A stretch of DNA of 64,000 nucleotides from Chiloscyllium plagiosum (lineage: Eukaryota): assembly GCF_004010195.1 (NCBI RefSeq), contig NC_057759.1:4737661-4801660 (forward strand). Direction: 5' to 3'. Position numbers and translations under genes: made by a program. The notes beneath the pieces are model-generated. The model was not told where the DNA came from. It made no database searches and saw only the letters and a program-made list of their open reading frames with translations. Shown here piece by piece: positions 3,770-63,940 of this stretch (position 1 is the first letter of the stretch; the number at the start of each line of letters is the position of its first letter).

Positions 3770-6700
3770 ATGGAACATAGAATCTTACAGCACAGTACAG
3801 GTGCTTCGGCCCTCAAAGTTTTGCCGATCTGTGAAACCAATCTAAAGCCCATCTAACCTACACTATTCCTTTACCACTCATATATTTTTCTAATTAACAG
3901 TTAAATGTCCTCAATGTCGACGTGTCCACGTCGGCTCTTCCACGACGTTATTATTCCCTGAGAACATAATCTACCTCGTATCTCCCTCCTCTACCTGTCA
4001 CCCACAATTTAAAGGTATGCTCTTTCTTGCTAGCCATCGCCATCTGTGTAAAAAGGCTCACACTGTCCACCCTATTTAATCGTCTGAAAATCTTGTACGC
4101 CTCTGTTATATCTTTTCTTAACATTAGTTTTTCTAAGGAAGCAGCCTCAAAACCCTCAGCCTTTCCTAATAAGGCGTTCTCTCCAAACCAGGCAACATCC
4201 TGGTACAGCTCTTCTGCACCCTTTCTATTGATTCGGCATGCTACCCAAATGTGGCGACCAGAGCTGTATGCAATGTTCCAAGTGCGGCCACAGCAGAGTT
4301 CTATATAGCTGCAACATTACCTCATAGCTCCAAAACTCAATCCGGCTACTAACACAAGCTAATCCACCAAACGCCTTCTTCACAAACCTGTCAACCTGCG
4401 TGGCAACTTTCAGGGATCTGTGGACATTAACACCGAAATCTCTCTGCTCATCTGCAATACAAAGAATCTTACCATTACCCCAGCACTCTGTATTTCTGTT
4501 CCCCCTTCTGAAATGAATCACCTCAATCTTTCTGCATTAAAGTCAATTAGCCCCCTCTCAGCCCAGCCCTGCAGTTTATCTGTGTTCCTTTGTAAATTGT
4601 AACATGCTTCCACACTGTCCCTTACTCCACCAAATGTTATGTCATCTGTAAGTTTAAAAGTCCATCCTTCTACGCCCTCATCCAGGTCATTTATAAAAAT
4701 GACAAACAGCAGTGAACCGAAAACACATCATTGCGGTACACCATTAGAATCTGAATTTCAGCATCCATCAACTACCACAGCCCGTCTTTTTACGCCTAAC
4801 CAATTTATGATCCAAATGGTCAAATCTCCATTAAAAACCATGCCTTCGCATTTTTTGCAAGATCCTACCGTGGGGAAACTGATCAAATATTTTACTGAAA
4901 CCCACATCAACTGGTTTACGCTCATCCACCTGTTTTGTCACCATTACTAAATTTTGTGAGGCATGACCAACCCTTCACAAGACCATCCTTATTCAAATTA
5001 TTCCTTTCTCGATGAGCATAAATCCTATCTCTTATAATGCTTTCTAAAACTTTGCCCATAACAGAAGAAAAGCTTACTGGTCTATAATTACCCGGGTTCT
5101 CTTTACTGTCCTTCTTGAATAAGGGGACAACATTTGTTATCTTCTAGTCTTCTGGCACTATTCCTGCAGACAGTGAAGGATGATGATCAAAACCAAAGGT
5201 TCTACAATCCCGTTCCGAGCTTCCCAGAGAATCATAGGATAAATCCCTTCCAGCCCAGGGACGTATCTATTTTCACACTTTCCAGGATTGCAAACACCTC
5301 CTTCTTATGAACCTCAATACTGTATAGTCCAGTAGCCTCTATCACAGTAATCTTTTCGATAATATTGTCTTTATATTGTCTAATACTGATAAAAATATTC
5401 TTTGACCGCCTGTCCAACACTTCGGTCTCCACGCACAACTTCCCACTACTGTCTTTGAATGTCCCTAATCTAACCCTGGTAATCCTTTTTATTCTTGACA
5501 CATCCACCGAAAGCTTTCGAGTTTTCCTTGATACTACCTACAAAAAAACTTTAATGTCCCCTCCTAGATCTTTTCGCTCTCTCTCTTTAGATCCTTCCTG
5601 GGATCTAAAGAGAGAGAGCGAACTGAGCCTTCACGTCTCATCTTTACATGAGCCTCCCTGACAAGAGAATCAACTTCTTCAGTAAACCATGGTTCCCTCG
5701 TTCGACCACTTCCTTCTTGCCTGACAGGTACATACTGATCAAGAACACGCAGTAGCTGTTCCTTGAACAAACTCCACACTGCGTATGTGCCCATTCCCTG
5801 CAGTTTCCTTTCGTATTCTATACAACCTAAGTCTTGCCTAATCGCATCATAATTGCCTTTCCCCCAGCTATAATTCTTGTCCTGCTATATATACCTATCC
5901 CTTCCCATTGCGAAATTAACTGTAACCGATTTGTGGTCACTGTCACCAAAGTGCTCACTTATCTCCAATTCTAACATCTGGCCTCGTTCATTATCCAGTA
6001 CCCCAATCCAATGCGGCCTCGTCTCTTGTTGGACCATTTGCATACTGTGTCAAGAAACACTCCTGCACACATTGCACAAAACTACTGGAACTGTAGCGTT
6101 TCCATTCAATATTTGGAAAGTTAAGATCCCCCACAACAACTGCACTGTAACTTTCGCTCAAATCCAGCATAATCTTTGCAATCTTATCTTGTACACCTCT
6201 GCAACTATTCGGAGGACTATAAAAAACTCCTAACAGCGTGGCCTCTCCTTTCTTGTTTCTAATCTCAGCCCATATTACCTCAGTAGATGACTCCCCTTAG
6301 AACATCCTTGCTGCCAATGTAAGACTGTTCTTTACAACAAATCCACATCTCCCCCTCCTTTACCACCCTCCCTGAACTTACTGAAACGCCTGAACTCCAG
6401 AACCTGCAACAACAATTCCTGTTCCTGCTCTACCCATGTCTTGACATGACCACAGCATCGAGGTACCAGGTACCAACCCATGCTGCAAGTTCTGTTACGG
6501 TGATGACTGCAGATGCTGGAGATCAGAATTGAGAGTATATTGCTGGAAAAACCCAGAAGGTCAGGCAGCATCCGAGAAGCAGGATAAATGACGTTTTAGG
6601 TCGGACCCCTTCACCAGAAATTCCTGATGAAGAGCTCCAGCCCGAAATATCCATTTTCCTGCTCCTCAGATGTTGTCTGACCTGCTGTGCTTTTCCAACA

Positions 6701-7790
6701 ACGCACTCTCCATGCTGCAAGTTCATCCACCATATTCCAGTTGCTCCTGGAATTGAAGTAGTCGCACTTAAAACCACCTTCCTGCCTGCTGGTATACTCC
6801 TGCGACGTTGAAACATTATTCCGGACTTCAAAACTCTTACTCTCCTGCACGTTGGAGCTACAACTCAGGAGCTCATCCCCTGCTGAATTAATGTTAACCC
6901 GATAAAGAGCAATAGCAAATTACTCCACCTCGCCCCAATGATATTGGTACCCCTCTGGTTCAAGGGTTTACCATCCTGTTTTTTTTTCAATGTCCCACCT
7001 ACCCCAGAATGTGCTCCAATTATCAAGGTATCTGAATCCCTCCCTCCTGCATCATCCCTGTAGCCACGTGTTTAACAGGTCTCTCTCTCCCTCTTCCATT
7101 TTCTCACTTGCACGTGGCATGTGTAACAAACAAGTGGTAACAATTATTTTTGTTCTAGCTCTATGCTTCCACGACAACTCACTGAATTCCTACCTTACAT
7201 CCCTATCCCTTTTCCTACCATATCGTTATTGCATATGTGGACCAAGACTTGGGGCTTCTTCCCCTCAAATTTAAGGATTCCAAAAACACGATCGGGGACA
7301 TCATGTACCCTCGCACCTGGGAGGCAACACAGCAACTGCAAATCGTTCTCGTTCCCACAGAATCTCCAGTTGTCCCCTAATTATGGACTCCTGCAATACC
7401 TAGTGCTCTACTCATCTTCCCCATTCCCTTGTAACAACAGAACAGACTGTGTGCCAGAGACCTGTACCTCATGGCTTATCCCAATAAGTCATCACCAGCA
7501 ACAATATCCAAAACGATACAACTGCTTCATCCCCGTTCGAACAGTCACCCAACTATTTGCATTTCTAGGAGTATTCACTTCGGAGTAGTTTCTTTCTAAA
7601 ACGGCCACTGCCACCCGAATGTTCCTGAGTTAATCCAGTTCCAGCTCCAGTTCCTGAACACGGTCTTCAAGGAGCTAGATTTCGGCGCACTTCCTACAGG
7701 TGTACCCGGCTAGGACACTAATGTTGTCGCCCACCTCAAACATCCAACAGGAAGAATATTGCACTGCCTGGGGTCCCATCCCTGCTAAGG
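3770..7790 (-). mobile_element. Near full-length decayed CR1 LINE (ORF1, endonuclease, RT, 3' end), interrupted by a Penelope hairpin
   Basis: ORFs 4225..4521 (LQLYRTLLWPHLEHCIQLWSP), 5232..5507 and 5564..5794 (EPWFTEEV); ORF1 esterase-like sequence at ~6900-7350. Confidence 0.85.
6493..6709. mobile_element. Short palindromic Penelope-derived insertion (family A) with 15-bp TSD
   Basis: Inverted arms centred at ~6620; perfect direct repeat CCATGCTGCAAGTTC at 6478-6492 and 6710-6724; CTGATGA...GAAA core at 6624-6647. Confidence 0.8.
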
Positions 7791-8454
7791 TCGTCTTATT
7801 GTCTTGTAAAAGAAAGCCTCGCGGTCAAGGGCAATTAGTGATGGACAACAAATGCTGCCTTTGCCAGTGAAGCTGACATCCCATGAAACAACAACATTAA
7901 CGGTGAAATAAACAAAGGATGTTTGGAGATCGAAAACAAAATTCTACAACATCTGAAAGTGTGTTAGAATATCAGCAGGTATGGCAGCCTCTGGAAGCAG
8001 AATAACTTTAAATTTACAAGTCCAATGACAGGTCGTCAGATGGAGAGAAAGAGCGAGAAAGAGAGGGAGATAGAAGCAAACACACAAAGGGATTGCAGGT
8101 AATGAACTGAAACAAAAATAAAATGGGAGTTTATTCTAACATTTCCCTTTTTTTCCATAATCCCGAATGCAAGGTCCGTTTTGTTATCTCCTTGTTTAAA
8201 GTGAGTTTTGTTCCCTCTGTCTCTATTTCTGAGTGTGCTAGCCAACTCCACCAGCAACACTGGTGCTGCCATTATCGCTGCTGAAATACAGAGAAAGGTA
8301 ACATTTCAATGTCGACTATATCTTTGCAGAGAGGAACTGTTATTGTGGGACAGTGCAGAGATGCAATGACAGAAGAGATACTGAGTAGAGGCAAGAATGT
8401 TCAATACTGAATACAGAAACCATGCTTGTAGGGATTTGATCTGGTCCTGTCATT

Positions 8455-10960: not shown

Positions 10961-11062
10961 CGTCCCAAACAGCCATTGAGTGTTTGAGAATTACATACTT
11001 TCTGTACAAAGTTAAAAATCACACAACACCGGGTTATAGTCCAACAGGTTTAATTTGAAGCA

Positions 11063-11097
11063 CTCTAGCTTTCGGACCGATGCTCCTTCATCAGGTG
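11063..11097 (-). ncRNA. Minimal type I hammerhead ribozyme motif
   Basis: Minus strand reads CAC-CUGAUGA-AGGAGCAUCGGUCC-GAAAGCUA-GAG. Confidence 0.65.
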
Positions 11098-12527
11098 GTA
11101 GTGGAGGGCTCAATCCTAACACACAGAACTTATAGCAAAAATTTACAGTGTAATGTAACTGAAATTATACATTGGAATATTGATTGTTAAGCCTTTCATC
11201 TGTTAGAATATAGTGATAGTTTCACTTCTTTCATGTGTAAATCACAAAACCGTTTTTTAAAAAAGTGCATTCTCGGGTTAGCTGTTAACAATGGTGATAG
11301 CTAGACAATATGTTGAAGGTGTTGGCCCCCTGTGTTCTCTGTCTATGCCATGATGTTTAGATTGATTCTAATCTAAAAAGTGAGATAACGGAGTTTTACA
11401 TAAATTCATGCAGTTTTTGAGCTCAGAGTTCTACATGAATGCATGCAGTTTTTGAGCAAAGTACAATGTAACCCTGCAAGTACAAATTCACCCCACAAAA
11501 TATATGTGTGCATGTGGGTCTTTGTCTGTCTGTGCGTGTGTCTGTCTGGGCTGGGGGTTGTGAGTGTGAGAAAGTGTATGCGTGTGTGTGTAGTGAGTTC
11601 AGAGTGTCTTAAGTCTGTGTGGGGTTGCATGTGTCTGTACGTTTGTGTGTATGTGGGTATAGGAGTACCTGTGTGTGTGAGTGTGTGTGTATAGTGTCTC
11701 TGTCTAGTGAAATGGTAGTGAACTGTAATGCGACATAAACCCAAGATCCCGGTTGAGGCCCTCCCTGTGAGTACCGAACTTAGCTATCAGCCTCTGCTCG
11801 GCCACTTTTCTCTGCTGCCTATCCCGAAGTCCACCTTGGAGAATGGTCACCCGAAAGTCCGAGGCTGAATGTCATGGACCACTGAACTGTTCCCCACCTG
11901 TGAGGGACACCTCCTGTCTGTTGATTGTTGTGTGGTGCCCATTCATCCGTTGTCGTAGCCTTTGCTCAGTTTCCCCAATGTACCATGCCTCCGGGCATCC
12001 TTGCCCGCAACGGGTAAGATAGACAACGTTGGCTAAGTCACATAGGTACCTGCCATGTATAAGGTGGGAGGTGTCCCCACGCGTAATAGTGGTTGGTATC
12101 TGTGTCCATACTCTGACACGTCTTGCAGCGCCTACCATGACAGGGTTGTATGGAGTTATCCTGTGAGCCGGACAGCTTGCTACGAACCACGAACTGCATG
12201 CATTCTTGTAGAACTCTGAGATCAAAAACTGCATGAATTTATGTAAAACTCCGTTATCTCACTTTTTAGATTAGAATCAATCTAAACATCATGGCATAGA
12301 CAGAGAACACAGAGGGGCAACACCTTCAACATATTGTCTAGCTATCACCATTGTTAACAGCTAACCCCAGGTTTTGTGATTTACACATGAAAGAAGTGAA
12401 GCTATCACTGTATTCTAACAGATGAAAGGCTTAACAGACAATCAATTTTTCAATGTATAATTTCAGTTACATTACACTGTAAATCTTTGCTATAAATTCT
12501 GAGTGTTAGGATTGAGCCCGCCACTAC

Positions 12528-12562
12528 CACCTGATGAAGGAGCGTCACTCCGAAAGCTAGCG
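12528..12562 (+). ncRNA. Minimal type I hammerhead ribozyme motif
   Basis: CAC-CUGAUGA-A-GGAG-CGUCA-CUCC-GAAAGCUA-GCG; intact core, stem II GGAG/CUCC. Confidence 0.7.
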
Positions 12563-13229
12563 TGCTTCCAATTGAACCTGTTGGACTATAACCTGGTGTC
12601 CTGTAATTTTTAACTTTGTACAGCCCAGTCCAACACCGACATCTCCAAATCATACTTTCGGTAGGATGCTTTCTTCCCGATAGTTTGCGTGCCTGTTCTG
12701 CGACCCCATGTCTATTGACAGAGAGGTACAGATCCTGAATGAACTCTGGACACATTTAATGTGCATTTACTGTGTGATGCTGCACTGATCGTTACATTGC
12801 ACAATATCTTCTCAGCAGCTACCATACCTTCATTCTGAAACAATTAATCATTTCCCATTAGCTTCTCACTTCCATCGAGAACATGGGTCTGTTCTCTCAG
12901 AGCTGAAAGACTTTGGGAGTAGTTTTTTTTTAAAAATTGGCTTCAAAGAAGAATATACTGAAGTAACATGTGTGCACTATGAGCAACGAAGTCACGCAGA
13001 TCAATTTGGCGCAGTGAGTCTATGCATTTTCTGCTCTATTTGTTTGTGATGTTGGAACATCTGCGACATCATCGTGTTTCTATGTTAGTGACTTGAGAAA
13101 CTGAATAACCTCCACCTGCCCCTTTGTAAGTAATTCTGGGTTTGAAATGATCTCTTTCTGATCCCGTGAAAGTGGCACGTGGGGCAGACCAGAGTCCTTG
13201 TTTTCCTGTATAACTGGCTGTCCCTCTTC

Positions 13230-19575: not shown

Positions 19576-19838
19576 TGCCCACCAACTTGTCCACCACCGA
19601 TGTCAGGAACACCAGTCTATTGTCGCCTGGTTTTTCCTTCTCCGTTTGTTTAAAAATGGCACAATATTAGTAAACCTAATGTCTTCCAGCTCCTCCTCTA
19701 TGGCATCGTTTGGTCAAAACATCTTTGGAAAGGACCCAGCAATCTGTCCACAGCTTTCCAGAGAGTTCTTGCGTACACTGATCAGGCCAAAACGGCACAT
19801 TCTTTAACATAGCATGTGGTTCGCATATGGGATGAAAT

Positions 19839-20635
19839 ATGCAGTACACCAGAACTGCAAAAAGAAGAAGAGGAACACCTATACAAGGTATTCGCCAAAA
19901 ACGGATACCCCCACAACTTCATCAACAGATGCCTAAGAGAAAGACCACGGAACGAGGACATACCACAACCAAAAGGACTAGCCACACTACCATACATCAG
20001 GAGCATCTCAGAACTGAGAGCCAGACTACTGCGACTCCTAGGACTCATAACGGCACACAAACCAACAGCCACGCTCAGACAACAACTCACCAGAATGAAG
20101 GACCCGATACCCAACATGAGCAAGACGAATGTAGTGTACAAAATACCACGCAAGGACTGAACTAAACACTATGTAGGACAAACAGGAAGACAGCTAACAA
20201 TCCGCATACATGAACATCAACTAGCCACGAAACGACACGACCAGCTATCCTTAGTAGCCACACCCACAGACAACAAGCAACATGAATTCGACTGGGACAA
20301 CACTACTATCATAGGGCAAGCCAGACAGAGAACAGCCAGTGAATTCCTAGAGGCATGGCATTCATCCACAAACTCCATCAACAAACATATCGACCTGGAC
20401 CCAATATACCAACCACTACAGCGGACAGCTGAAACTGACAACCGGAAGCGGCAGGGACAGACCACTTTCAACACCGGAGGAAACATCAAAGAAGCGCTTC
20501 GCAGGAGGCTCCCAAGCACTGATGATGTCGCCTAGCCAGTGGACGAAACGTTTGCAACAAAAACTTCCAGCTTCGCGAACAGAACCACAGCAACGAGCAC
20601 CCGAGCTACAAATCTTCGCACAAACTTTGAACAAT
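19839..20635 (+). mobile_element. 5'-truncated Penelope-like element (family C, Poseidon-like) with GIY-YIG and pLTR
   Basis: FAKNGYP..LPYI..NVVYKIP..*TKHYVGQTGRQLTIRIHEH..FLEAWH; 13-bp TSD TA(T/C)GGGATGAAAT at 19826-19838 and 20636-20648, inside a CR1 3' end. Confidence 0.9.
20516..20555 (+). ncRNA. Minimal hammerhead ribozyme motif in Penelope pLTR
   Basis: GCA-CUGAUGA-U-GUC..GAC-GAAAC-GUU-UGC. Confidence 0.7.
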
Positions 20636-21602: not shown

Positions 21603-21900
21603 GGGCGGCACGGTGGCACAGTGGTTAGCACAGCGCCAGAGACCATGGTTCAATTCCCGCCTCAGGCGACTGACTGTGTGGGGTTTGCACGTTCTCCCTG
21701 TGTCTGCGTGGGTTTCCTCCGGGTGCTCCGGTTTCCTCCCACAGTCCAAAGATGTGCAGGTCAGGTGAATTGGCCATGCTAAATTGCCCGTAGTGTTAGG
21801 TTAGGGGAAAATGTAGGAGTATGGGTGGGTTACGCTTCGGCGGGGCGGTGTGGACTTGTTGGGCCGAAGGGCCTGTTTCCACTTTGTAATTAATCTAATC
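21603..21900 (+). mobile_element. tRNA-derived SINE (elasmobranch HE1-like)
   Basis: A box TGGCACAGTGG, B box GGTTCAATTCCC, conserved core CTCCCACAGTCCAAAGATGTGCAGG, TAATC tail; further copies at 34165, 42496, 63265. Confidence 0.85.
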
Positions 21901-22956
21901 AAAGACTGACAACAGAAAGCTCAAAAGGTCTGGTAGCATCTGTTGAGAGAAATGGAAGTTAACATTCTGCGTCGAGAGAGTGTTCCTCAGAACTCATATC
22001 AGGGGGATATTACATCATTTTAAACACACCAGAGACTGCCAACAGGCCCCATACATATACACGCAAAGACAACACACGAATCCAGAGACATAGAGATATT
22101 CACTAATACACCGACACTGATGCAGACATGTAGAATCTGTCAGTTTTTCCCTTGCTGCATGGTGAGCTTTTGAATATTTCAGTCGCTCTGTGTGGTGCTA
22201 TGTCAGTATTTCAGTATGTCCTTGGAGAATGTATCAGCATTGCACTTTCTCACACTAATAGTTTTGTCAGTATTTCTGTGTCGAGCGTGACTGTAGTGTA
22301 ATTGCAATGTTGATAGATACCAAACCTGAAAGAATTGTAATGTGAATGGACGACAGTGTGGAACTCCATCAGAACAGCAACAAGTTAACGTAGCGTACAT
22401 GTATATGGCAGATGAGGATCAATACAGAACAGTGTGAGATGATGTTTATTGGTAGCAAGAACAATGAAAGACAATATAAACAAACCGCACCGTTATAAAG
22501 GTGCTGCAGGAGATGAGAGCGCTGGGTGTATATTAGCACAGATTATTGAAGATATCAGGGCTAATAGGGAGATTAATACATATCGTGGATCAGTTTTAGT
22601 ATCTGTGCTGTTTACTGGAAGATATGCAGAAGGGACCCTCCATACACCGTTCTTGCGAGGTGGTGGAGACCGAGACCATGGAGACTTCATTTACACCAGT
22701 TCGATACAAAGGGAGATGGCATTAGGTCAACGGCTTCTAAATTGTGCCACAAGGAAACGGAACTGACAGTGGGTTTAAAGTCAGAATAGTTCTTCACTAA
22801 ATATTGCTCCTTACTTGGTTTCTTAGTTAAAGTAGACGTTGGGAAATTGTTTCCATTGAAAGGAGTGTCTCGGTCCCGGAAGGCTTTGAGTAAAGGGAAG
22901 TGTTTTTAGAACGGTGGGCGGCACGGTGGCACAGTGGCACAGTGGTAAGCACTGCT

Positions 22957-24484: not shown

Positions 24485-24580
24485 AAGTCAAAACGTGTGG
24501 TGCTAGAAAAAGCACAGCAGTTCAGGCATCATCCAAGGAGAAGGAAATTCGATGTTTCGGGCATGAGCCTTTCATCAGGG
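24485..24580 (-). mobile_element. Penelope family A pLTR fragment with hammerhead core
   Basis: Minus strand CUGAUGA-AAGGC-UCAU-GCCC-GAAAC-AUC at 24551-24578; matches the arm at 6530-6620. Confidence 0.65.
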
Positions 24581-25039
24581 ATTGCTGATAAAGCAGTACG
24601 TATTTTTACCCTTATTTATGGTCTCTAGAAATTTCTCTACGAGATGCTGCATGCAGCTGTTTGTTATTTTATCCCTGTCTCCTTTTACAAACTAAGTGGA
24701 ATGTAAACAACCCTGCATTGTTCTGGAGCTCATACAACACAGAAAGAGGAAAGATTACAAGAATTGTAAGATTAATGCTCCATCTCTCAGCAACTCTCAC
24801 ACATTCAATGCAGAGCGAGTAAATGTTTCCTTTTATTTTGATATGATAAAAGATACAAGGAAGGGGTTAACTGAACATGTTCAGCGACTATCATTAATGT
24901 CAATCTCTATGGATTTTACTTACCCCAGTGGAGGGTCTCCATCTTTTAATGATAAATTGGCTACACTCAATGATGTATCCCATAATATATGCGGAAGCAT
25001 CACTGACAGCATCAATTGGTCTAGAGAGAGGGTGTGGAG

Positions 25040-25869: not shown

Positions 25870-26060
25870 CATTATAGAGATGCTAGAGTTGTACTGGAGT
25901 AGACAATGTCAAAAATCAAAATGTATTAGGTTACAGTTCTGATTGCAAGCTGTCGGAGTGCTAATCCTTTTTCCAAGCCTGAGGACGGAGCTCAACTCCG
26001 AAAGCTTGCAATCTTCAAATAAACCTTTTGGACTACAACCTGCTGTTGTTTGATCTTTAA
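25870..26060. mobile_element. Degraded palindromic Penelope family B-like hairpin
   Basis: CTGAGGA-C-GGAG-CTCAA-CTCC-GAAAGCTT at 25979-26007 with a decayed inverted arm to the left. Confidence 0.55.
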
Positions 26061-26999
26061 TGCCATCGATATTGCTATTGGGTCTGGCATCATCTTTGTT
26101 TTAATATTCTCAAGGACGTCATCACATCTGTCCATGAAATGTCCGTCTGTCTCTCTGTCAATTACACAAACCCCTTGTTAGTTGTTCATAATGAAACATG
26201 TTTCCTGTATCACTGTTCTATCTCAAAGAATGTTTTTTCACATCTAATACCGCGCACACACACACATTTCTGTAACTTGTAGTGGTGAAATGGAGATAGA
26301 AGGGAATAATTACTGGAGGCCCAACTTACTGTGACTCACAGTATGGGCTGTGAATTTTCCCATGGTATGTTATTATCTTGAAAAGCATAACACTAATATG
26401 CTGACAAAGGTTTGCAATACTCCTCATGCTAGGCCGACAGCCCAGTTTATGGAGCAATATACTAGAGTGGTCTATATAGCTCTCCAGACTGGGCTCTCCA
26501 TACTCCGTCTCCATTCATTGACCGTGGATATATGATGGTGATGAGGCAAATGCAATGTTTTCTCCTTCATCAGGGAGCTGCCAGGAATATCCTTCTCTTC
26601 CCAGAATAGCGGGATTCCCGGTGGTGTACATGGCTCTGCGGGGTCCACTGTCAACCGAGAGAAGTAGAGGAACTGAAGGAACTCTCTTCCCATTAGTGTT
26701 GCAGTATGACTATGCATAGTGCATCATGCTGGTGAATCATGTCCTGGTAGCAGCCACAGTCTCTTCATTCAGAATCAGACAGGCATTCCAATCATCTTCG
26801 GGTCTACATGTAGGAAGAAAATTTGGTAGGTTTGATAACGTCCACCGCTCCTCTTCAACACTCATCACAACTGACCAACTACATCAACATATCCCGTGCG
26901 TACTGAGAAAACTTTGGTCACTGTGAACATCAGGGAGCAGACCATCAGGGAGATGGACCAACACTTCTGATGACTGAACTGGTCAGAGTGAATCCGACA

Positions 27000-34590: not shown

Positions 34591-35359
34591 GATTGTTGAT
34601 AATGATAGAGTAAGGGATTATCCTGGGGGAAAAGTTACAGATTGTGATTGAATATAATTCTGTTTCTGCTGCTGCTGTGGTCCACAGCACCACACCAATG
34701 CTCAGTTTGGAGCTGCAATTTCTGCAATGCAATTCTGCTCCCTGTCCCCAGTTGACATCGAGACCCCATTCACCCATCCGCCCTGTACTCAGTGACCTGC
34801 TCTGGTGTCTGATGTGGTAACACTTCCATTTTACTATTCTCATCCTGCTGGGTGTTCTCTCCTTGCTGTCAATCGTCCAATTTGCCACATTCATCAAAAC
34901 CATTTAAAATATTAATTTCAATCTTTTCCCTTCAGTAGTGTCGTCTTGTTTTAAAGTGAATGTCTCTCTCTCTCCCTCTCTCTCCCTCTCTCTCTCCCCT
35001 TCTCTCTCTGACCATGATAAAGAGCTCTGCAGTGTCAGTGATGTCAATCTTATGCAGTTTCAGAACCAATTAATTTTTGCACCTTGCATTGTCACTCACT
35101 TCCCATGTATGTCGCTCTGTGTTGAACAAGGCATAGAAGCTGATTTGACACATGAAGTGTCATTGAAACGTGTTCAAAACAGAAACTATTGGCGAAATTA
35201 AGCAAGTCTAGCAGCATATTGAGTGAAAGCAGAGTTAATATTTCGAGAGCTGTGACCCTTCTTCAAAGCTCCCATTTCCTCCAGCACTTTTTGTTTTTGT
35301 TACAGATTTCCAGTGTGCACAGTACTTTGTTTTACTGAAAATGTTTCCTTGCCTGTCTA

Positions 35360-36090
35360 TTTCTGGAGAAACTCAACAGGTCTGGCAGCGTCTGTGGAGA
35401 CAGGAAACAGGCTTAACATTTCAAGTCCAACGTGACACTTCGTCAGAACTGGTCAGAATTGGAAAAATGGCTGTTTAATCCCGTCATAAAAGTAAAGGAA
35501 GAGTGACTGGAAAGAAAGGGTGTGGTGGCCCAGTGCAAAAGACAAATGGGCTTTAGTCGTAATGGAAGAGAAATAGATGTAAAATGTGTGTGAATTCTGG
35601 TGTGGGTGGGTGAAATGGACATTGGGGAAAATGCGAATGGACAATACTGAGTGCAAGAGAAAGAAGATATAAACAAAACAATGTCATTCAGAGTTGGGTG
35701 GGAGAATGTATGAAAAATGGAGAAAACTCATAATAATCGGGCAGGCTGTGAAGTTGTGGAATTGAATATTATGTCCTACAGGCTGTAACGTACCAAAATG
35801 TAAAGTTAAGTGTCACTCGAGCTTGGTGTGCTTCGTTTGAACATTGCAGCAGCTCAGAATAGAAACATTAGCATGATAGCAAGATAGGTTATTGGAATGG
35901 GCAGGACTGAGAAGGTAAGGGTTATCCCTACAGATAGAGTGAAAGTGTTCCACAAAATAATCTCTGTTTGCTCTCGTCAATGTAAAGAAGACAGTAGTGT
36001 GACCAGCTGTGATAGGACATTGGATTAAAAGAGTACACGTGAAATGCTGCTTTACCTCGAAAGTGTGTTTTGGGTTGCTAAGCAATTAAA
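35360..36090 (-). mobile_element. Old Penelope-like 3' fragment (GIY-YIG remnant and pLTR)
   Basis: FEVKQHFTCT..YFVEHFHSIC; minus-strand CUGACGA..GAAA motif near 35415-35447. Confidence 0.6.
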
Positions 36091-37196: not shown

Positions 37197-38425
37197 ACCG
37201 TCTCCACAATGCAGAGAAGACCATATTGACGGCAATTGACACAGATCATGAGGTGTTTGGATGTGAAGGAAAATCTCTGCCAGCTGTTGAATGATCATTG
37301 GGGTCTTGGATAGAGGTGAGAGAGAAGGTGTTGGCGTAGATGTTACCCCTCTTGCCGTGGCAAAGCATAGTGCTGGTAATGGAGGATGTAGGCGTGGATC
37401 TATGGCGGTTGTTGTGGAGGGAATAGCCTGTGTGGAATGGCTGAAAGAGTGGGGAAGGAAACAAATCTCTGGTGGTGGGGTCTGACTTTATGTGGCGGAA
37501 ATGGCAGAGGATGATACGCTGTATCCGGAGATTAGTTGAGTAGAATGTGAGAACCAAGGGAATTCTAACTTATTGTGGTTGGAGGGATGGGCTTCAAGGG
37601 TGGAGGTGCGGGAAGTGGACGAGATGCGCGGGAAAACATTGTTGAATACTTGTGTGTAAAATTGTGGTCTTTGAAAGAGGAGGTCATCTGTCATGTGCTG
37701 GAGCGTAATGGCTCCTCCTGGGAGGAGGTATGGCTGAGGTGGAGGAATTGAGAGTAAGGTAAGGGGTAGGGTTTTTTTCTGGATTGGAGGTGGAAGGAAT
37801 TGGGTTAGGAAGAGGTGTAATCCAGGAATCTGTGAGACTCGGTAGGTTTGAAGTAGATACCCGTGGTAAATCAGCCACTGAAAATGAAGACAGAAAGTTA
37901 CAGACAGGGAAGGGAAGTGTCCGAGATGGTCCAGATGAACTTGGGATCAGGGCAGAAGATGTTTATCAATGTGATGAACAGTTCAACATGCTCACCTGGA
38001 GCAAGGATGCCTCATCTACTGCCTTCAGGCTCTCCAACAACACGGCATCCATGTCGATTTCACCAGTTTCCTTACCTCCCATACACCCACCTCATCCCAG
38101 ATCCATCCTTCCAAATCTGCACTGCCCACTTTGTCTGTCCTACCTGTTTATCTTCCTTCCCACCTATCTGCTACATCCTCTTCTCTGGTCAATCACCATT
38201 TTTTCCCCACCTGAATTGCCTTCCCAGCTTTCTTTATTCCAGCCCCACACATTTCTATTTATCTCAAAGCCCCCTTCTCGCCCAAGTCCACAATCCAGAT
38301 GATAGGCTTATGGCCGAAATGTCGATTCCCCTGCTGCTCAGATGCTGCCTGAGATGTTGTGCTTTTCCAGCGCCACGATTTTCGACTCTGACGCCCAATA
38401 TCTGCAATCCTCACTTTCTTCCCTT
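37197..38425 (-). mobile_element. Penelope-like element (family A) body with inverted pLTR at ~38000-38425
   Basis: Minus strand VLTFYSTNLRIQRIILCHFRHIKSDPTT and ..C..YGLLCIVET (decayed LYIGET); plus-strand pLTR with mutated core CAGATGA..GAAATGTC at ~38296-38323. Confidence 0.75.
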
Positions 38426-38584
38426 CCAAATACGTCCGGAGAGTTCCTCCCCCTTGTCCATATATTTACGTTACTCAATTTTATTTGTGTTTCACCCAAA
38501 AGTTAGCAATAGATATAACTGAAAGAGGACGTTTTCAGAGACGGGGCACGGAGAATGATAAAAGGATTAATTAACTGAATGCAA

Positions 38585-50940: not shown

Positions 50941-50954
50941 CCTGTTGATTAGCC

Positions 50955-52525: not shown

Positions 52526-52762
52526 AAGTTAAAAAAAAATCACACAACACCAGGTTATAGTCTAACAGTTTTTTTCTGGAAGCACTAGCTTCTGGAGTGT
52601 TGCTCCTTCATCAGGTAGTTTTGGGGCAAACCCACTATCAAATGATGAAGGAGCAGCACTCCAGAAACTAGTGCTTCCAGATAAAGCTGTTGGACTATAA
52701 CCTGGTGTTGTGTGGTTTTTAACTTTGCACATCCCAGACCAAAACCAGGACCTCCAATTCAT
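52526..52762. mobile_element. Short palindromic Penelope family B hairpin
   Basis: Inverted arms 52526-~52620 and ~52630-52725 match the termini of 11003-12650; one-sided tail to 52762; ribozyme GAAA box mutated in both arms. Confidence 0.85.
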
Positions 52763-54346
52763 ACTTAATTCCAGCACACCATTGAATGCATTTCTAACCA
52801 TGACCTGTGTGCAGCAAGTTGAAAGTGCAAGCTTTATTTTTGTCCTTTCAAAGCAGCAATCTTATTCATGATGCAACATCAGATATGATTCCAAAGCAAG
52901 CAAATGTTCTTCAACTCGATTTTTAAGATTCTGTCAGGCATTATTAAGTACAGCATCGAGCGAAATAGAAAATACGGAGAGACACTCATTCCAAAACCAC
53001 ATTCTCAGGAAATCGGGTTCAATCTTGAGTTAAAAAGTGAAAAAATCTCTTGTCCCACGGAGTAGCTATAAACCCCACAGTGGGTAATCTTCATAAAGCA
53101 ATTGATAAACTCCAACGCTTGCAATGGGCAGGGCAAATGCTATTGATGGAATAGCTAAACACATCAAACAAACAAAATGCCTTTCCTGCACTCAAAGAAA
53201 GTCTTTATGAAGGTTCCAAAACGTTACTATCGCAAACAGACAGATGCTATTGTCAGGACACTGAATGTTTCTATCCCGCCATCTATCAGAATTAATAATG
53301 CATCTGGAAATTATTGGCAGCTTTTTATGTACAAAGTCTTCCGAATCAGCGGCAAATTGATTCTGGAAACAGCACATCAATTGCAAAAGATTTCTTATTA
53401 AGACTCCGATAAGACGCGTGTGAAACAATAACTTGACTAAAAATGAAAGAAAAACTGCAAGTGTATCCAAATTGTAGTCTCAGGGAACTATTTGATGTTA
53501 ATGAGCGCTGGACAACATACACAAAACATGTTGCTCCTTGTCCGTCACGATACACCACATATCTGGTTAAGACAATGTCACCAATTCAGAGTTCCAGTAG
53601 TGTGCTAATTCATTCTCGATGTAATTAGTCTAATCCACGAAGTATTTCTGCCTGAGGTCTATGCCCCAGATAAATATTTGCAGTGCATGCAATCAATTTC
53701 TAACTGGTGAACTGGAAATTGTTTCGAGACCTTTTGAGCAACATTTTTTCTTCTTCTTTTTGACAAGGGCATTTGCGATTACCATATCAAAAGATCAGAG
53801 ATGATGAATAACTTGGAGTATCACTCATTTCTGCAATTATGGAGAAATAGCTGTTTGGAGCAGCATAAGAGGGTGCAGAAATGTCTAACTTAAACACCAA
53901 GATGATACTGCACCGTGACGCCAGAGTCTTTAAAATGACTTGGTGAAAGTGAACACAGAGTTGAAAAGCGTAAATCTTGGCATTTCCGGACAGAAAGCCG
54001 TCATTGAAGTATTATATCTTCAAACATATTTCTCACTGATGTGTTCAGTTATAATATCGCACTTCAGGATCTGATGGGACCGGCACCCAGGCTGTCCTGG
54101 TACTGCGATAAAGACACTGCCAGTGCACCACAAGGACCTACAGCATTTGACTTTAAGACTGTGCATGCTTACTGATTTATCCTTAATATGACACTGCCAG
54201 TTCTTAATTATCCAGCTTATGATGTCCGTGCCAGACATTTTATGCATTTGTTTGTTTTCAAATATTCTATTTCCTCGTTTGGGAGAAGATTTGTAGCTCG
54301 GGTGCTCGATGTTGTTGTTCTGTTCGCCGAGCTGGGAATTTGTGTT

Positions 54347-54386
54347 GCAGACGTTTCGTCCCCTGTCTAGGTGACATCCTCAGTGC
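54347..54386 (-). ncRNA. Minimal hammerhead ribozyme motif
   Basis: Minus strand GCA-CUGAGGA-U-GUCACCU-AGAC-AGGGGAC-GAAAC-GUC-UGC. Confidence 0.75.
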
Positions 54387-54528
54387 TTGGGAGCCTCTTG
54401 TGAAGCGCTTCTGTGGTATTTCCTCCGGCATTTATAGTAATTTATAGTGATATATTTATAGTGATATATACAAATCACTATAAATGCCGGAGGAAATATC
54501 ACTGAAGCGCTTCACAAGAGGCTCGCAA

Positions 54529-54568
54529 GCACTGAAGATGTCACCTAGACAGGGGACGAAACGTCTGC
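54529..54568 (+). ncRNA. Minimal hammerhead ribozyme motif
   Basis: GCA-CUGAAGA-U-GUCACCU-AGAC-AGGGGAC-GAAAC-GUC-UGC. Confidence 0.75.
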
Positions 54569-56834
54569 AACACAAATTCCCAGCTCGGCGAACAGAACCA
54601 TAACAATATCCTATTTTCTGTTCCCGTATCTTCTAGTTAACTTTTGTATTTTCTTCTTTTCATCGCTGTTTAGCCTCATTTACTTGACTGCTGATACATT
54701 CAATAATACAACTTACATTTTAGCGTTCCTGTCGTTTTATAATACTATCTATTCGCATGATAGAGAATAGATAGTATTACAAACAATTTAGAAGAGAATT
54801 TAGAATAACTTATTTGAAAACCCAACCGACTGTTTTGCAACTGATAAAACTTTTGCAATCTCTGCAACATCGTGTAAACACCTCCCAGGCATAATGTAAA
54901 TTCAAACACTCGAAGTAATTGAACTTGGAGAAGTGGCCACTTCCCTGCCATTATTCAAAGTAACGATTCCCAGATAAATCTGCAAGAACAACATAGCCTT
55001 TCTTTAAAGAGGCAGCATCTTCACGATCACTCACTCGCAGGCAAATAAACACACCCGTATCAGAGCTCAAAACGCACAAATGTAACATGATCTTTGAGAT
55101 CACATTTCTATATGTTACCCAAAACAATTCACTCTTCCTCCACCCTCAAATATATTTAGTCCTGACACTAAAATATTTTCTCTGATGAGTACAGTAAACT
55201 GATGGTTTTTTTCACCACACATTTCCGAACATGGAAGGCTTATGTCGCTCTGAGCATTAATTGAGACTTTCTCGCAACTTATAAGAAACTGTTACAGTAT
55301 TGTGACGGGATTAGTTTCCACCATGCCTATTTGTCCTTGGTGTTCAGCTGCATGAATCAGTCAGTTTGCAGGGTTGACTGCTGAATAAGTTTTCTTGATT
55401 TTCTTCAGTGTTCTTACTTCTCTTTTCAAGCCAGAACTACTTTATTGTATTCTATTCCTTTTCTCCACTTCCATATGCTTCGTCCCAGCCACTTCTACAA
55501 TCTATAAACAATCCCCAGGTGCAGCAGTGAACATCCCCACAAGTCCTCCGGAGATGCAATGCATTCCTTTGAAAAGGTTGTGCCTGACCATGAATTGACA
55601 GCAATACCACAACATTATAACCATACAGTTCTCAGCAAGTCTTAAACCAACAATGAACCTCCCTATCATTCTATTCTCACTTAAATGTGCCAACAGGAAC
55701 AAGGTACAGATTCTGTGTCCTATATTGTAATTTCCTCACTTAGCAGGTCTTCTTATAACACTGCAATCTCTCGGGATGGTGTACACAATAAATTCAGAGA
55801 CGTATCTGTCAGCGATTTGTTAACATTAATTTACTCCATAGTTAGATTTTAATTTCATATCTATATCCACTGAAACATTTTTTTCAGTGGACGTTTGATT
55901 AATTTTGTTGTACATAAGGCGTTTTAAACGCACTTGAAGGAGTCGATAGGGCAGAGAGAGAGCAAGCACTGAGATTTTCCGACATTACCTAATTCACAAC
56001 AGGATGGGTCAATTTCCTTCTATTCTGGTTTATCGTTTTTTCTCCCAATGTCAGCTTCACAGACCCGAACGGAAGTAGTTGAAAACATAACGGCAATTTA
56101 CTCCTGTATTACATCGCAGTTGGAAACTGAATTTGATTGTTGCCATAGGGTCCTATAGCACGGAGACAAGCCTGTTGGCCCAAACTGGTCCATGCCGTCC
56201 ACAATCTCTGCCCACACTAACCCCATTTCCCAGCACTTGACGCATATCCTTCTGTTGCTTTCCTATCCCCTCTTGTGTTTACGATGTTCCATCTGTCTGA
56301 AACGGTAAATCATATACGTAAAACAAACTTCTGAGAGAAACATAATGTGAAGTAGAACCAAAAGTTTCAATAATCAGGTCGAGAAACTGGGGACAACATG
56401 TGTGTGGCTGTGTGTGTGAGAGAGAGAGAGACAGGGAGCGAGGGAGAGAGTTAATCAAACAGTGAAAAGTAGAGAATGGGAATGAGACAGTGTGACATTG
56501 GCCATAGCATAAACCATAGCATGAATGCATTGAGTAACAGGAGGTGGCGCAATATCTGTGATGGTCAGAGTGAATTTCGAAATACAAGATTGACATTTTT
56601 TTTAAATTGCTTATGAGTTTGAAGCAATATTGAATTCCAATGGCAGAATATTTTTTAGAAACAAATCAAACATGATACAAATGAACCGCAAAGCAGACCG
56701 GGTGGGCTTAATGGCACTGACATTTGTTATCTGATACTACATTTCAATGGATATCCAAAAACTCATGACCCTAACGTAACAGGTCCCCACTAAAAGTAAA
56801 TCGGACCACTGAGCTGATGCATGAGCAAGTTCTA

Positions 56835-57741: not shown

Positions 57742-58199
57742 CTGTAACATACACACACAGAGTGAAAAGGGTGAGCATACAGAAAAAGAGGGAAAGTGTA
57801 CCCCCTTGCTTTGTTAGGGATTGGTGTGATGGAGATGGGAGGTCAGGAGGACGACTGTTTGGGATAGCAAATAGAAATCTACCTATTCAAAAGACAATCA
57901 GATTTTATGTAGTTTTCTTAAGATCAATCTCCAATACACATTCGAATACCATCACTTTACTAGCCTATGCGGTTTCTTTGCTGACTCTATGCCTGTTGAT
58001 TAATCCTTGACATGCCGATCTGAATTAGTGACATGAAACTTAATAAGAATGATGAATATGCCATATATTTGTCGAAATTAAACAAAAAATAAACGAGACT
58101 GAAACACCCTGCTCCTAGTCCAGAAGGCAAACTTTTTCACTTACGAACATGTGGCAATGAACCCGTTCAAAAATGCATTCAGAGATTTGTTTTAAAAAA

Positions 58200-58362
58200 T
58201 CTGAAGATTTTGGAATGCAGGAGGCTGGAAGAACACTGCAGGCTAGGCTGGAAGAACACTGCAGGCCAGGCAGCATCCGGCGGTGTAGAAGTCGGCGTTC
58301 GGTTGAAACCCTTCTTCAGAACCATTCCGAAGAAGGATTATACCCGAAACGTTAACTTCTCC
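58200..58362. mobile_element. Penelope pLTR-derived partial hairpin in the GPCR pseudogene intron
   Basis: CCCTTCTTCAGAA..TTCCGAAGAAGG..CCCGAAACGTT; same family as 63775-63940; contains a 23-bp tandem duplication. Confidence 0.6.
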
Positions 58363-58480
58363 CCCCGAAAATGTATTCAAGCAGACAAAGACGAACGGGT
58401 CGTTAGCTTTATGTGAAATGTGGCTGTTACGATTGTTACGTCTCCATGATTATTCCTGGAGCACAGTTGGGAAGTCACGT

Positions 58481-61595: not shown

Positions 61596-62369
61596 CTGAG
61601 AACATAGAGCATTGAACTTGACCGATAAAAGAGTAATTGCTCCAATTAGTCATCAAAGCAGAGTAACTTTAGTTTTGAAAACAAAAACAGCTTCCCAGAA
61701 AAAGACCACGTTCGAAACATTTCATAAAATGAAGTGTAGGAAGAAAGGTACAAAAGTGTAAAATAATGGATTATGGCTGATGCCTGTTCCCATTAAAGAA
61801 TTCCTCTATGTTACACAAAATGTTATGTATGCTCCCGGTTTGATAGGATGGTCCACATGATTGAATATTATCACACAGTTTCCAGGGGAAATAAAAGTTC
61901 AACTGGCACGAGGAAATGGACATGACGCATCAAGATAGAGGAAAAGGTGTGAAGTCCGCATGAAAAACAAATAACGATCAGTTGTTATTTTATTTGACAT
62001 GAAGAGGTGGCCTGTTGTCATTTTACTGAACTCGTTATAAAGTATTCCCGGCTACAAATGTAAAGGCAAACGTTTAAAACGTTACATAGTAGCCATGGGG
62101 GCTTACATTCAAGTAAAAAGATTTGTTGTTCCCCTCTGAAACACGAAAAAAAGCTATCACCAATTACTATGAACCACAATTCTGGCTCATGAATGTTCTA
62201 TCATCAAGGCCAGCTGCCATCCTTACACCTTCTGTTTTCAGCATCAGTACGACTGGATGAGAAAGTCTAACGTTGCAGCGCACTGAGTGTGGAGCCTGAA
62301 ACATTCATATGGCCTAGAAACATGAATTCACGGCGGGCAGGGCCTGCACACGCAGCTGCAGCTACTGCC

Positions 62370-63125
62370 ATGGAGAAACCCGAGGAATGCCACCACGTGG
62401 ACTAACCGTGGAAGTGGGGCAACGTGCGTGCCACGTTTGCCTTGGAGACTTATGGGTGCAATCACACTGGGGAGAGACTGTTCTCCTGCACCGAGTGTGG
62501 GAAGAGCTTTCCCAAGCCTCCCACCCGGTTTCCCACTGGCAGGTCCACACCAAGGACTGGCGGTCCACGTGCCCCGTGTGCAGGAAGGGTTTTACCCAAG
62601 CCTCCTGCCTGCTGTCCCACCAGCAGGTCCACACTGGGATTGGCGGTCAACCTGTCCCATGTGCAGGAAGGGCTTTACCCAATCTTCCCACTGGCGGGTC
62701 CACACTTGTGACTGGCCGTTCACCCACTCTATTTGCGGCAATAGTCTGAACCACTCCTCCCACCTGATGGCCCACTAGTGGGTCCACAAGGGAAATCCAT
62801 TTCTCCTGCTCCAGATGCAGGAACGGCTTCACTCAGGCCTTACACCTCCAGATGCGCTGGTGTGTGCAGAAGGGGGAGAGTCTGTTCTTGTGCCCCAAGC
62901 GCGGGACGGGCTTCACTCTCTCTTTCCACTTGCTGATCCACCGGTGACTCCACATTGGGGAGAGGTCCTTCAGCTATCCCGAGTATGGGGAGGGTTGACC
63001 CACTCCTATCACCTGATGATTCATTGGCGGGTCCATGTTGGTAAGAGGTTGTTCACCTGCCTCGAGTACGGGCACATGTTAACGTTGCCCTGCAACGTCC
63101 GGAGGCACCCACAGCGGCAACCAGT
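62370..63125 (+). pseudogene. Intronless C2H2 zinc-finger pseudogene
   Basis: MEKPEECHHVD*PWK, HTGERLFSCTECGKSF, CPVCRKGFTQASCLLSHQQVHTG, HWRVHVGKRLFTC spread over several frames with stops. Confidence 0.85.
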
Positions 63126-63264
63126 GATCCCAACAATCAGACTCCACCGGTGTCGCTGCTGTGGGTCTCTCCCAGGATTGAAACTTCTGCCCATTCTGAC
63201 AGTGGGTGCAGTCAGAGAGTTGATGGGCATCTTGTTTTGTTTTCTGTAGGAAGCCACGGTGCTC

Positions 63265-63625
63265 AGGGGTGGCACAGTGACTCAGCGGCTGGCACTGCTG
63301 TCTCACAGCTTCAGGGACACAGCTCGATTCCACCTTTGGACTGAATGTCTGTGTGGAGTTTGCATGTTCTCCCTCTATTGTTTGCGTGGCTTTCCTTTGA
63401 GTGCACTGGTTTCCTCCCACAGTCCAAAGATGTTTAGGTTAGGGTGAACTGGCGAAGCTAAATTGCCCGCATTGTTCAGGGATGTGCATGTGTGATGCAT
63501 CATTTATGGATAAAGGTAGGCTAATAGGGTAGGAGAACGTGTCTGGGTGGGTTAATGTTCGGAGGGGCAGTGTGGACTTGTTGGGCCGAAGGGCCTGTTT
63601 GCACATTGTCTGGATTCTATTGTTC
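63265..63625 (+). mobile_element. Older tRNA-derived SINE
   Basis: Shares CTCCCACAGTCCAAAGATGT core and GTGGACTTGTTGGGCCGAAGGGCCTGTTT 3' part with the other copies. Confidence 0.8.
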
Positions 63626-63774
63626 TATGCACTTTGCTTTCAGTTGGCGCTGCTGCTCGTTGCCCCCAGGCTGCACGTCCCCACTGAAACGATCTGCAGA
63701 AACTTGAGACCACAAGACCAGCAGAGCAGAAGTTAGGACATTCGGCCAATCGAGTGTGCTCTGCCAGTCGTTGG

Positions 63775-63940
63775 AGACAAAAAGAAAGCTGCAGATGTTG
63801 GAATCCAAAGTAGGCAGGTAGGAGGCTGGGAGAACACAGCAAGCCAGGCAGCACCAGCTGGTGGAGAAGTCAGAGTTTCCTGTATTGACCCTTTTTCAGG
63901 ACTGAAGAAGTGTTCCACTCGAAACGTTGACTTCTCTATC
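63775..63940. mobile_element. Penelope pLTR-derived partial hairpin with hammerhead-like core
   Basis: CTGAAGA-AGTG-TTC-CACT-C-GAAAC-GTT at 63902-63928. Confidence 0.6.

What the first reader, a model, noticed from the sequence alone, without database searches (positions are those of the whole stretch)
6478..63940. Three or more unrelated Penelope families share one insertion architecture: TSD, inverted pLTR pair, one-sided 28-38 nt tail
Seen in sequence: family A (6493-6709, tail on the left ~38 nt, 15-bp TSD), family B (11003-12650, tail 12623-12650; 52526-52762; ~25870-26060) and family C (54276-54604, tail ~34 nt) differ in sequence but have the same geometry. About a dozen intact or decayed hammerhead cores are scattered over 64 kb. 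Established: inverted pLTRs with a 3' extension are a hallmark of Penelope integration. Inference: the short forms are either extreme 5' truncations or a self-propagating class of ribozyme-bearing MITE-like retroelements.
Basis: partly seen in the sequence, partly recalled or inferred. Interest (0 to 1): 0.7.

Follow-up and report, generated by a model that had tools for sequence, protein, structure and literature searches.

The report
Penelope jumping-gene stubs in a shark
The mirror-image inserts are real but ordinary in kind: they are end-pieces of three Penelope-type jumping genes laid down in a pattern already described for this class, and they look like separately made stubs rather than a self-copying mini-element.

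Summary
Real, mostly known. Three Penelope-like (PLE) families in a carpet-shark-like genome form head-to-head pLTR pairs with a one-sided 34-38 nt tail, as already described for PLEs (PMC3846280, PMC8557442, PMC11167929). Each family's arms match the 3' end of an RT/GIY-YIG-bearing copy in this window. TSDs beat chance for 3 of the 5 named copies. A self-propagating MITE is not favoured: centres differ in all 8 two-armed copies, and all 15 best-supported of 121 joints have 1-2 contigs. Extras: a 1.2 kb family A copy with an internal twin-priming-type inversion and 16-bp TSD; and poly(A) reads ending inside the B pLTR, upstream of both termini. Together these suggest run-off cDNA from the 5' pLTR (inferred). 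No whole genome was available. The scan reported this architecture and clustering before on other pieces of this genome.

The parts
6478..6492 (+). Family A short copy: left TSD (15 bp, perfect; right copy 6710-6724)
6493..6709 (.). Family A head-to-head pLTR pair; tail about 6493-6531 on the minus-strand arm; facing hammerhead cores at 6617 (-, decayed) and 6624 (+), 6-nt centre
11003..12196 (-). Family B long arm: 5'-truncated ORF end (linker C-x4-C-x2-C and GIY-YIG, 12196-11713), CA-rich 3' UTR, pLTR with hammerhead at 11094, tail-less end
12192..12653 (+). Family B inverted pLTR arm with hammerhead at 12531 and 34-nt tail 12620-12653; about 5-nt overlap with the long arm at 12192-12196; 13-bp TSD 10994-11006 / 12651-12663 (1 mismatch)
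12569..12591 (+). Position of the family B poly(A) signal (AATAAA in the read consensus, mutated in this copy) and of poly(A) addition at 12588-12591 in RNA reads of a related organism
   Evidence: table 7
19840..20635 (+). Family C 5'-truncated ORF end (RT thumb to GIY-YIG; 87% to P0025), pLTR with hammerhead at 20519, tail; no inversion; 13-bp TSD 19826-19838 / 20636-20648 (1 mismatch)
24485..24603 (.). Family A decayed copy: minus arm with core at 24578 and a stub of a second arm (core-like at 24585); no TSD
25872..26062 (.). Family B (divergent variant) short pair, tail on the left, core 25979 (+), about 1-nt centre; no TSD above chance
37199..37978 (-). Family A long copy, inverted 5' segment: RT C-terminus, thumb, linker and GIY-YIG start
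   Evidence: (P0047 residues 52-309, combined E 2.7e-26)
37993..38417 (+). Family A long copy, 3' segment: end of GIY-YIG (weak match, E 1.4), pyrimidine-rich UTR, decayed hammerhead at about 38296, tail; 16-bp TSD 37183-37198 / 38418-38433 (1 mismatch)
52526..52762 (.). Family B short pair, tail on the right (about 52727-52762), 27-nt centre; both arms share the same core-breaking change in the GAAA box; TSD not above chance
54276..54604 (.). Family C short pair, tail on the left (about 34 nt), cores 54383 (-) and 54532 (+), arms reach about 21 codons into the ORF end, 22-nt AT-rich centre; 15-bp TSD 54261-54275 / 54605-54619 (2 mismatches)
58182..58367 (.). Family A-type pair: tailed minus arm with a 23-nt tandem duplication, 7-nt centre, tail-less arm only about 40 nt; 12-bp TSD 58170-58181 / 58368-58379 (1 mismatch)
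63775..63945 (.). Family A-type pair: tailed minus arm, 2-nt centre, core 63902 (+), short tail-less arm; no TSD
3578..3735 (.).
35345..35480 (-). Family A-like single arm of another subfamily, core 35446
21905..22000 (-). Family A-like decayed single arm

Best explanation
These are insertions of three autonomous-type endonuclease-bearing PLE families (A and B with a linker zinc-finger motif, Neptune-like; C without it, Penelope/Poseidon-like). The GIY-YIG nicks both target strands 12-16 nt apart, giving the TSD. Each nick primes its own cDNA at one of two fixed internal start sites about 34 nt apart in the pLTR, so one arm carries the tail and the other does not. The two cDNAs stop independently and are joined head to head, sometimes through a few bases of microhomology or filler. 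The hairpin is therefore built at each insertion. Short forms arise when both cDNAs are short; many stop at the hammerhead's 5' edge (RNA 5' end or RT stop). Shown here: geometry, two fixed termini, link to RT-EN copies, differing centres, edge clustering. From the literature: both-strand cleavage and extension, two internal RT starts. Inferred: head-to-head joining and the cause of the edge stop.
For: Arms match ORF-bearing copies: C 54276 to 19840-20635 (82-87%; ORF 87% to RT-bearing P0025); B short copies to 11003-12653 (ORF piece 75-83% to four Chiloscyllium punctatum proteins); A 6493 to the end of 37199-38417 (0 of 300 shuffles reach the score; ORF identified). Family B termini at 12619 and 12652/12653 in contigs: X1 279 and 255+656, X13 194 and 395, X12 157 at 12653 only. 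Centres of 8 two-armed copies: 6, 6, 7, 2, 27, 1, 148, 1436 nt, all different sequences. The 15 best-supported of 121 joints have 1-2 contigs and depth 24-57 against bin depths of 1e4-3e6. The tail sits on the ORF arm in two copies and on the inverted arm in B11003. The 37199-38417 copy shows that a second priming can occur inside the ORF. In vitro a PLE protein cleaves and extends both strands and starts RT at two internal sites that bound the tail (PMC11167929).
Against: No whole genome, so the copy census was not done; only 3 B, 2 C and about 8 A-type copies were seen whole. The 6-nt centres of A6493 and A24500 could descend from one centre. Contigs resolve tight hairpins poorly, so a high-copy shared centre could be missed; 106 joints were not shown. 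In 4 A-type copies the tail-less arm ends well inside the usual end, which also fits fold-back synthesis or truncation of a hairpin RNA. Both B52526 arms share a core-breaking change, which fits fold-back or conversion as well.
Confidence: 0.72

Rival explanations
1. Fold-back synthesis: one cDNA primed at the tail runs to the RNA 5' end, snaps back on a short palindrome and copies itself, making the second arm. The hairpin is still built per insertion.
For: Near-palindromic 1-7 nt centres in 5 copies; short tail-less arms in 4 A-type copies, one with a 12-bp TSD; shared private change in both B52526 arms. Self-priming was proposed from junction palindromes in rotifer PLEs (PMC3846280).
Against: It cannot make B11003, whose tail-less arm holds ORF sequence absent from the tailed arm, nor A37199. 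It does not explain the sharp tail-less terminus at 12619.
Confidence: 0.13
2. Self-propagating hairpin mini-retroelements: a few master palindromes are transcribed and mobilised in trans by PLE proteins.
For: Similar size of many copies; A6493 and A24500 both have 6-nt centres; depth is several-fold higher over the last 100 nt than over the ORF (crude). pLTRs suffice for mobilisation in trans (PMC3846280), and putatively nonautonomous PLEs exist in Chlamydomonas (PMC8557442).
Against: All three B centres differ (1, 27, 1436 nt); no listed joint exceeds 2 contigs; joints sharing the 12522-12526 end have different partners; both hammerheads of B52526 are broken; no separate promoter was identified (not searched for).
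Confidence: 0.12
3. The hairpins arose after insertion, by a second PLE copy landing next to the first or by deletion within a long inverted pair.
For: PLEs tend to insert next to existing copies (PMC6765202).
Against: One TSD encloses both arms in A6493, B11003, C54276 and A58246; the tail is on one side only; arm identity of 93-95% in three copies fits one event.
Confidence: 0.03

Closest known systems
Inverted-pLTR insertions with optional 30-40 bp tail of endonuclease-bearing PLEs (Arkhipova et al. 2013, PMC3846280; Craig et al. 2021, PMC8557442; Schostak et al. 2008, PMC2377424)
   Same: One TSD around an element plus an adjacent inverted 5'-truncated pLTR; tail at one end only; inverted repeats of copy-dependent length; palindromes at the junction.
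   Different: Here most copies have both arms cut to about 40-140 nt with no ORF; TSDs are 12-16 bp versus 8-10 bp in the rotifer examples; the host is a shark. None of the passages read treats sharks.
Poseidon of Anolis carolinensis, in vitro (Frangieh et al. 2024, PMC11167929)
   Same: Two internal RT start sites bounding the tail; both strands cut and extended; hammerhead upstream of the tail.
   Different: The text read (parts 1-2 of 4) does not describe the inner ends of arms, head-to-head joining or a poly(A) site in the pLTR. Families A and B carry the linker zinc-finger motif that Poseidon-type C lacks.
[quoted passage not shown]
   Same: Unpaired base before stem II, G10.1-C11.1, palindromic 15.2-16.2, no stem III; thousands of solo motifs and opposite-strand pairs 100-700 bp apart ascribed to truncated PLEs.
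   Different: Here facing cores are often 7 nt or less apart.
Metazoan non-LTR retrozymes (Cervera and de la Pena 2020, PMC7229834)
   Same: Short, non-coding, type I hammerhead; PLEs suspected as mobilisers.
   Different: Retrozymes are head-to-tail tandem repeats with canonical hammerheads; these are head-to-head pairs of PLE ends with minimal hammerheads.
L1 twin-priming 5' inversions (recalled, not from a call)
   Same: Copy 37199-38417: TSD, inverted internal segment, deletion, non-inverted 3' segment, TSD.
   Different: PLE with GIY-YIG, and a tail instead of poly(A).

Membership tests
Endonuclease-bearing Penelope-like elements | RT followed by C-terminal GIY-YIG in one ORF, ending at the pLTR | tested here: met
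   Window fragments align to RT/GIY-YIG proteins for A, B and C. Pfam GIY-YIG scores are weak (window B fragment E 0.093; 1 of 7 relatives above cut-off). No full-length copy lies in the window.
Endonuclease-bearing Penelope-like elements | pLTR, direct or inverted, with optional 30-40 nt tail at one end | tested here: met
   two termini 34 nt apart in public contigs for family B
Endonuclease-bearing Penelope-like elements | Minimal type I hammerhead in the pLTR | tested here: met
   8 strict matches versus 0 in 50 shuffles. Monomer MFE folds did not give the ribozyme fold (8 of 8, z -1.3 to 0.75).
Endonuclease-bearing Penelope-like elements | Hammerhead self-cleavage | not testable with these tools
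   No pile-up of read ends was listed (table 6), but the RNA library was poly(A) single-cell and unsuited.
Endonuclease-bearing Penelope-like elements | Target site duplication | tested here: met
   6 of 13 copies above the best of 300 random pairs; 7 of 13 not
Neptune/Nematis clades (families A, B) | Zinc-finger-like motif in the RT-EN linker | tested here: met
   Present in the window's B fragment, in 13 of 24 B relatives and 15 of 43 A relatives scanned (many are fragments); decayed in the window's A copy.
Penelope/Poseidon clade (family C) | No linker zinc finger | tested here: met
   0 of 19 C relatives carry the motif
Named PLE clades | Placement in an RT tree with reference elements | not tested
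   No reference set was fetched; Neptune and Nematis were not told apart.
MITE-like non-autonomous family | Many copies share one internal junction from a master | tested here: not met
   8 different centres in 8 copies; 15 best of 121 joints have 1-2 contigs. Small sample; contigs handle hairpins poorly.
MITE-like non-autonomous family | Symmetric ends flush with the TSD and short fixed-length TSD | tested here: not met
   One-sided tail; TSDs of 12, 13, 13, 15, 15, 16 bp
Metazoan retrozymes | Head-to-tail tandem units with canonical hammerheads | tested here: not met
   Pairs are head to head and motifs minimal
Metazoan retrozymes | Abundant circular RNA | not testable with these tools
   Only a poly(A) library was laid.

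The most novel reading that the evidence does not exclude
The short arms are PLE 'strong-stop-like' cDNAs. The normal transcript starts 5-10 nt upstream of the hammerhead in the 5' pLTR and, in family B, is polyadenylated inside the 3' pLTR upstream of both RT start sites. The only start sites on such an RNA lie in its 5' pLTR, so most reactions give about 90-125 nt run-off cDNAs that are integrated singly or head to head, and only read-through RNAs give ORF-bearing arms. This would explain fixed-size hammerhead stubs without a master element and would map the PLE start site from genomic junctions.
Probability: 0.35. Interest if true: 0.55.

Novelty: new member of a known kind. Interest (0 to 1): 0.27.

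Why it matters
The architecture itself is textbook PLE biology. Its value is as a natural data set: PLE pieces cover about 9% of this window (5.7 of 63 kb, boundaries by eye), and tens of thousands of contigs per run lay on one family's end. How PLEs form tandem and inverted structures is stated to be unresolved (PMC8557442). Two fixed outer ends, an inner-end hot spot at the hammerhead edge, an internal twin-priming copy and a poly(A) site upstream of the RT start sites give concrete predictions for the existing in vitro system (PMC11167929). It also warns annotators that such hairpins can be mistaken for MITEs or microRNA precursors (all 10 Rfam hits were sub-threshold microRNA models).

Tried and rejected
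No whole genome was held, so the census was not possible. Pattern scans for other genomic copies found 0 matches in prokaryote genomes, metagenomes and viral contigs. Rfam: no hammerhead family hit; 10 microRNA hits, all below gathering score, rejected as generic hairpins. Monomer folding of 8 hammerhead regions gave no signal over shuffles. The word-index homologue search for the family A fragment found 0 of 38 candidates; the full scan found 44. No RNA holder was listed on record for the B arm; this is not evidence on expression. An apparent A/B terminal similarity (71% local) fell to chance outside the hammerhead (29 of 300). TSD candidates for B52526, B25870, A3593, A63788, A24500, A35349 and A21910 were not above chance. 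Literature searches with no hits: Penelope+shark+palindromic+hammerhead ribozyme; Penelope+hairpin+inverted+non-autonomous+shark; Penelope1_Vert; Penelope+pLTR+twin priming; Penelope-like+pLTR+strong-stop. Penelope-like+pLTR+polyadenylation signal gave one review whose passages concern another ribozyme. Luense et al. (PMC5785218) was not held. PMC12910113 passages were not informative. The library lacks most subscription papers, including Arkhipova 2006, and Repbase/Dfam were not searchable.
Full report
Context. No whole genome is held for this window. The best protein hits of its retroelement fragments are from Chiloscyllium punctatum and Hemiscyllium ocellatum (75-88% identity), so the host is inferred to be a carpet shark.

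Observation. Self-comparison finds local inverted repeats at 6524-6717, 11002-11450/12192-12623, 52535-52720 and 54310-54605; the decayed pair at about 25872-26062 is found with the B arm as query. Arm identities are 73% (A6493), 94.6% (B11003), 92.8% (B52526) and 94.2% (C54276). Each has an extension on one side only: about 38 nt (A6493), 34 nt (B11003), about 36 nt (B52526), about 34 nt (C54276). TSDs were scored for 13 copies against 300 random pairs, whose best score was 8. Six exceed it: A6493 (15 bp, perfect), A37199 (16, 1 mismatch), B11003 (13, 1), C19840 (13, 1), C54276 (15, 2) and A58246 (12, 1). Seven do not, among them B52526 and B25870. Boundaries were chosen by eye, two after a first pass. 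A strict minimal-hammerhead descriptor matches 8 places versus 0 in 50 Markov shuffles; two more keep both boxes and about 8 are decayed (by eye). Rfam finds no hammerhead, and monomer folds show no signal; minimal PLE hammerheads are reported to need dimers (PMC4209133).

Do the arms match autonomous-type elements? Yes, for all three families, inside this window. C: 19840-20635 encodes RT thumb to GIY-YIG (87% over 230 aa to P0025, which carries RVT_1) and ends in the same pLTR and tail as 54276-54604 (82-87%). B: the minus arm of 11003-12653 encodes a C-x4-C-x2-C linker and GIY-YIG. The linker motif occurs in 13 of 24 B relatives and 15 of 43 A relatives scanned but in 0 of 19 C relatives; by the definition in PMC8557442 A and B are Neptune/Nematis-type and C is Penelope/Poseidon-type. 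No tree was built. The families' ends are unrelated outside the hammerhead, but RTs are 28-32% identical.

Beyond the window (family B only). Public data were laid on 11750-12720: 33,604, 18,967 and 31,885 contigs of three runs and 3,350 RNA reads of a fourth, from coded organisms that may differ from the window's species. Of 2,298 loose-end rows 24 were shown. Loose ends with diverse flanks lie at 12652/12653 (X1 255+656, X12 157, X13 395) and 12619 (X1 279, X13 194). These are two termini 34 nt apart, matching the two RT start sites that bound the tail in the Anolis element (PMC11167929). The 15 best-supported of 121 joints have 1-2 contigs and depth 24-57, against bin depths of about 1e4 to 3e6, so no amplified junction was seen. 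This negative is limited: contigs resolve tight hairpins poorly and 106 joints were hidden.

Junctions. The centres between facing cores are 6, 6, 7 and 2 nt (A-type), 27, 1 and 1436 nt (B) and 148 nt (C), all different in sequence; in A3593 the second arm starts inside the hammerhead (not in that count). A6493 and A24500 could share an ancestral centre. Inner ends cluster at the front edge of the hammerhead: 5 of 7 short copies have centres of 7 nt or less, and 5 of the 23 distinct listed joints have an end at 12522-12526, 5-9 nt before the core (0.56 expected in that 10-nt window, P 3e-4; P 0.036 for any 10-nt window). Their partner ends differ (11791, 11798, 12578, 12595, 12619). A shared breakpoint on one side with varied partners is what a fixed RNA end or RT stop predicts, not a single master. 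B11003 joins through about 5 nt present in both arms; C54276 has a 22-nt AT-rich centre.

Other geometries. C 19840-20635 is tailed, TSD-flanked and not inverted. In A 37199-38417 residues 52-309 of the PLE protein P0047 map to the minus strand (37978-37199, combined E 2.7e-26) and residues 342-363 to the plus strand (37993-38058, E 1.4 alone), followed by UTR, hammerhead and tail, all inside a 16-bp TSD. This is the layout of L1 twin priming (recalled). It suggests that the inverted pLTR is the case where the second primer uses the tail-less start site.

Poly(A). In the single-cell poly(A) run X21 (organism B, about 2% read), 370 and 417 of 3,350 reads carry an A-run after 12588 and 12591, 12-15 nt after an AATAAA in the read consensus and before a GT-rich stretch; the window has no A-tract there, and depth is strongly biased to one strand. 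Such RNAs stop about 30 nt before the tail-less terminus and cannot template either end from their 3' pLTR. This is one sample, and the reads may come from a few host genes using the repeat as a 3' end.

Mechanism. Best reading: two nicks, two cDNAs primed at two fixed internal sites, joined head to head at each insertion (0.72). Fold-back synthesis may contribute to short copies but cannot make B11003 or A37199 (0.13). Master hairpin elements remain possible (0.12). The boldest open reading is that short arms are run-off copies of the transcript's 5' pLTR (0.35), which would be a refinement within the best reading.

What is known. Inverted 5'-truncated copies and a 30-40 bp tail at one end are described as typical of PLEs (PMC8557442, passages; PMC3846280, passages; PMC2377424, passages). 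Solo and opposite-strand minimal hammerheads were ascribed to truncated PLEs (PMC4209133, parts 1-2 of 4). I read parts 1-2 of 4 of PMC11167929 and passages of PMC7229834, PMC6765202 and PMC12910113; other papers only as search listings. No supplements were opened; Fig. S2 of PMC11167929 may bear on arm-end distributions. Searches found no paper on shark PLE hairpins, PLE twin priming or a pLTR poly(A) site; one search listed two papers that mention Penelope once each and were not opened. The library lacks most subscription papers and repeat databases.

Earlier scan notes on other pieces of this genome reached the same verdict and noted the edge clustering; I wrote my own note of the clustering before seeing, and they are not independent evidence. 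Word searches for twin priming and polyadenylation returned no notes.

Verdict. Observation real with corrections; known architecture; new members of a known kind; interest 0.27.

Noticed in passing
window 37199-38417: Family A PLE copy with an internal twin-priming-type inversion (inverted RT-to-GIY-YIG segment, about 60 codons missing, 3' segment with tail) inside a 16-bp TSD.
   Followed up: yes
window 12569-12591: Family B pLTR position where 787 of 3,350 RNA reads of a related organism carry poly(A), 12-15 nt after AATAAA.
   Followed up: partly
window 12651-12657: Loose-end consensus behind 12653 starts with GACT in three contig runs (low overall agreement, 0.36-0.37), which would make the tail end run into an ATG; possibly the ORF start of the next unit.
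   Followed up: no
window 17974-18212: Isolated internal RT fragment of a family B-like PLE (profile E 2e-16) with no pLTR found nearby.
   Followed up: partly
window 45806-46744 (+) and 56906-57460 (-): Two rhodopsin-family GPCR reading frames (7tm_1, E 7e-15 and 3e-7); the first is an open 312-codon frame, the second partial.
   Followed up: no
window 62318-63249: Frameshifted C2H2 zinc-finger array (84-nt-period repeats), probably a pseudogene.
   Followed up: no
window 21603-21890, 22916-22955, 34163-34470, 42510-42811, 63267-63621: Copies of a SINE-like repeat, up to 95% alike; resembles the shark HE1 SINE (label recalled, not tested).
   Followed up: no
window 44946-45281: Diverged 26-nt tandem array just upstream of the GPCR frame.
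   Followed up: no
window 5573-5622 and 54736-54783: Two short hairpins (about 50 nt, 86-88% self-complementary) without a hammerhead.
   Followed up: no
window 32231-32770: LINE-type RT fragment (RVT_1 E 1.6e-17); similar CR1/L2-looking pieces at about 15018-15398 and 27422-27943 (by eye).
   Followed up: no
window 22957-23456 and 47619-48097: Assembly gaps (500 and 479 N); the first follows a SINE start, so repeats here may be under-assembled.
   Followed up: no
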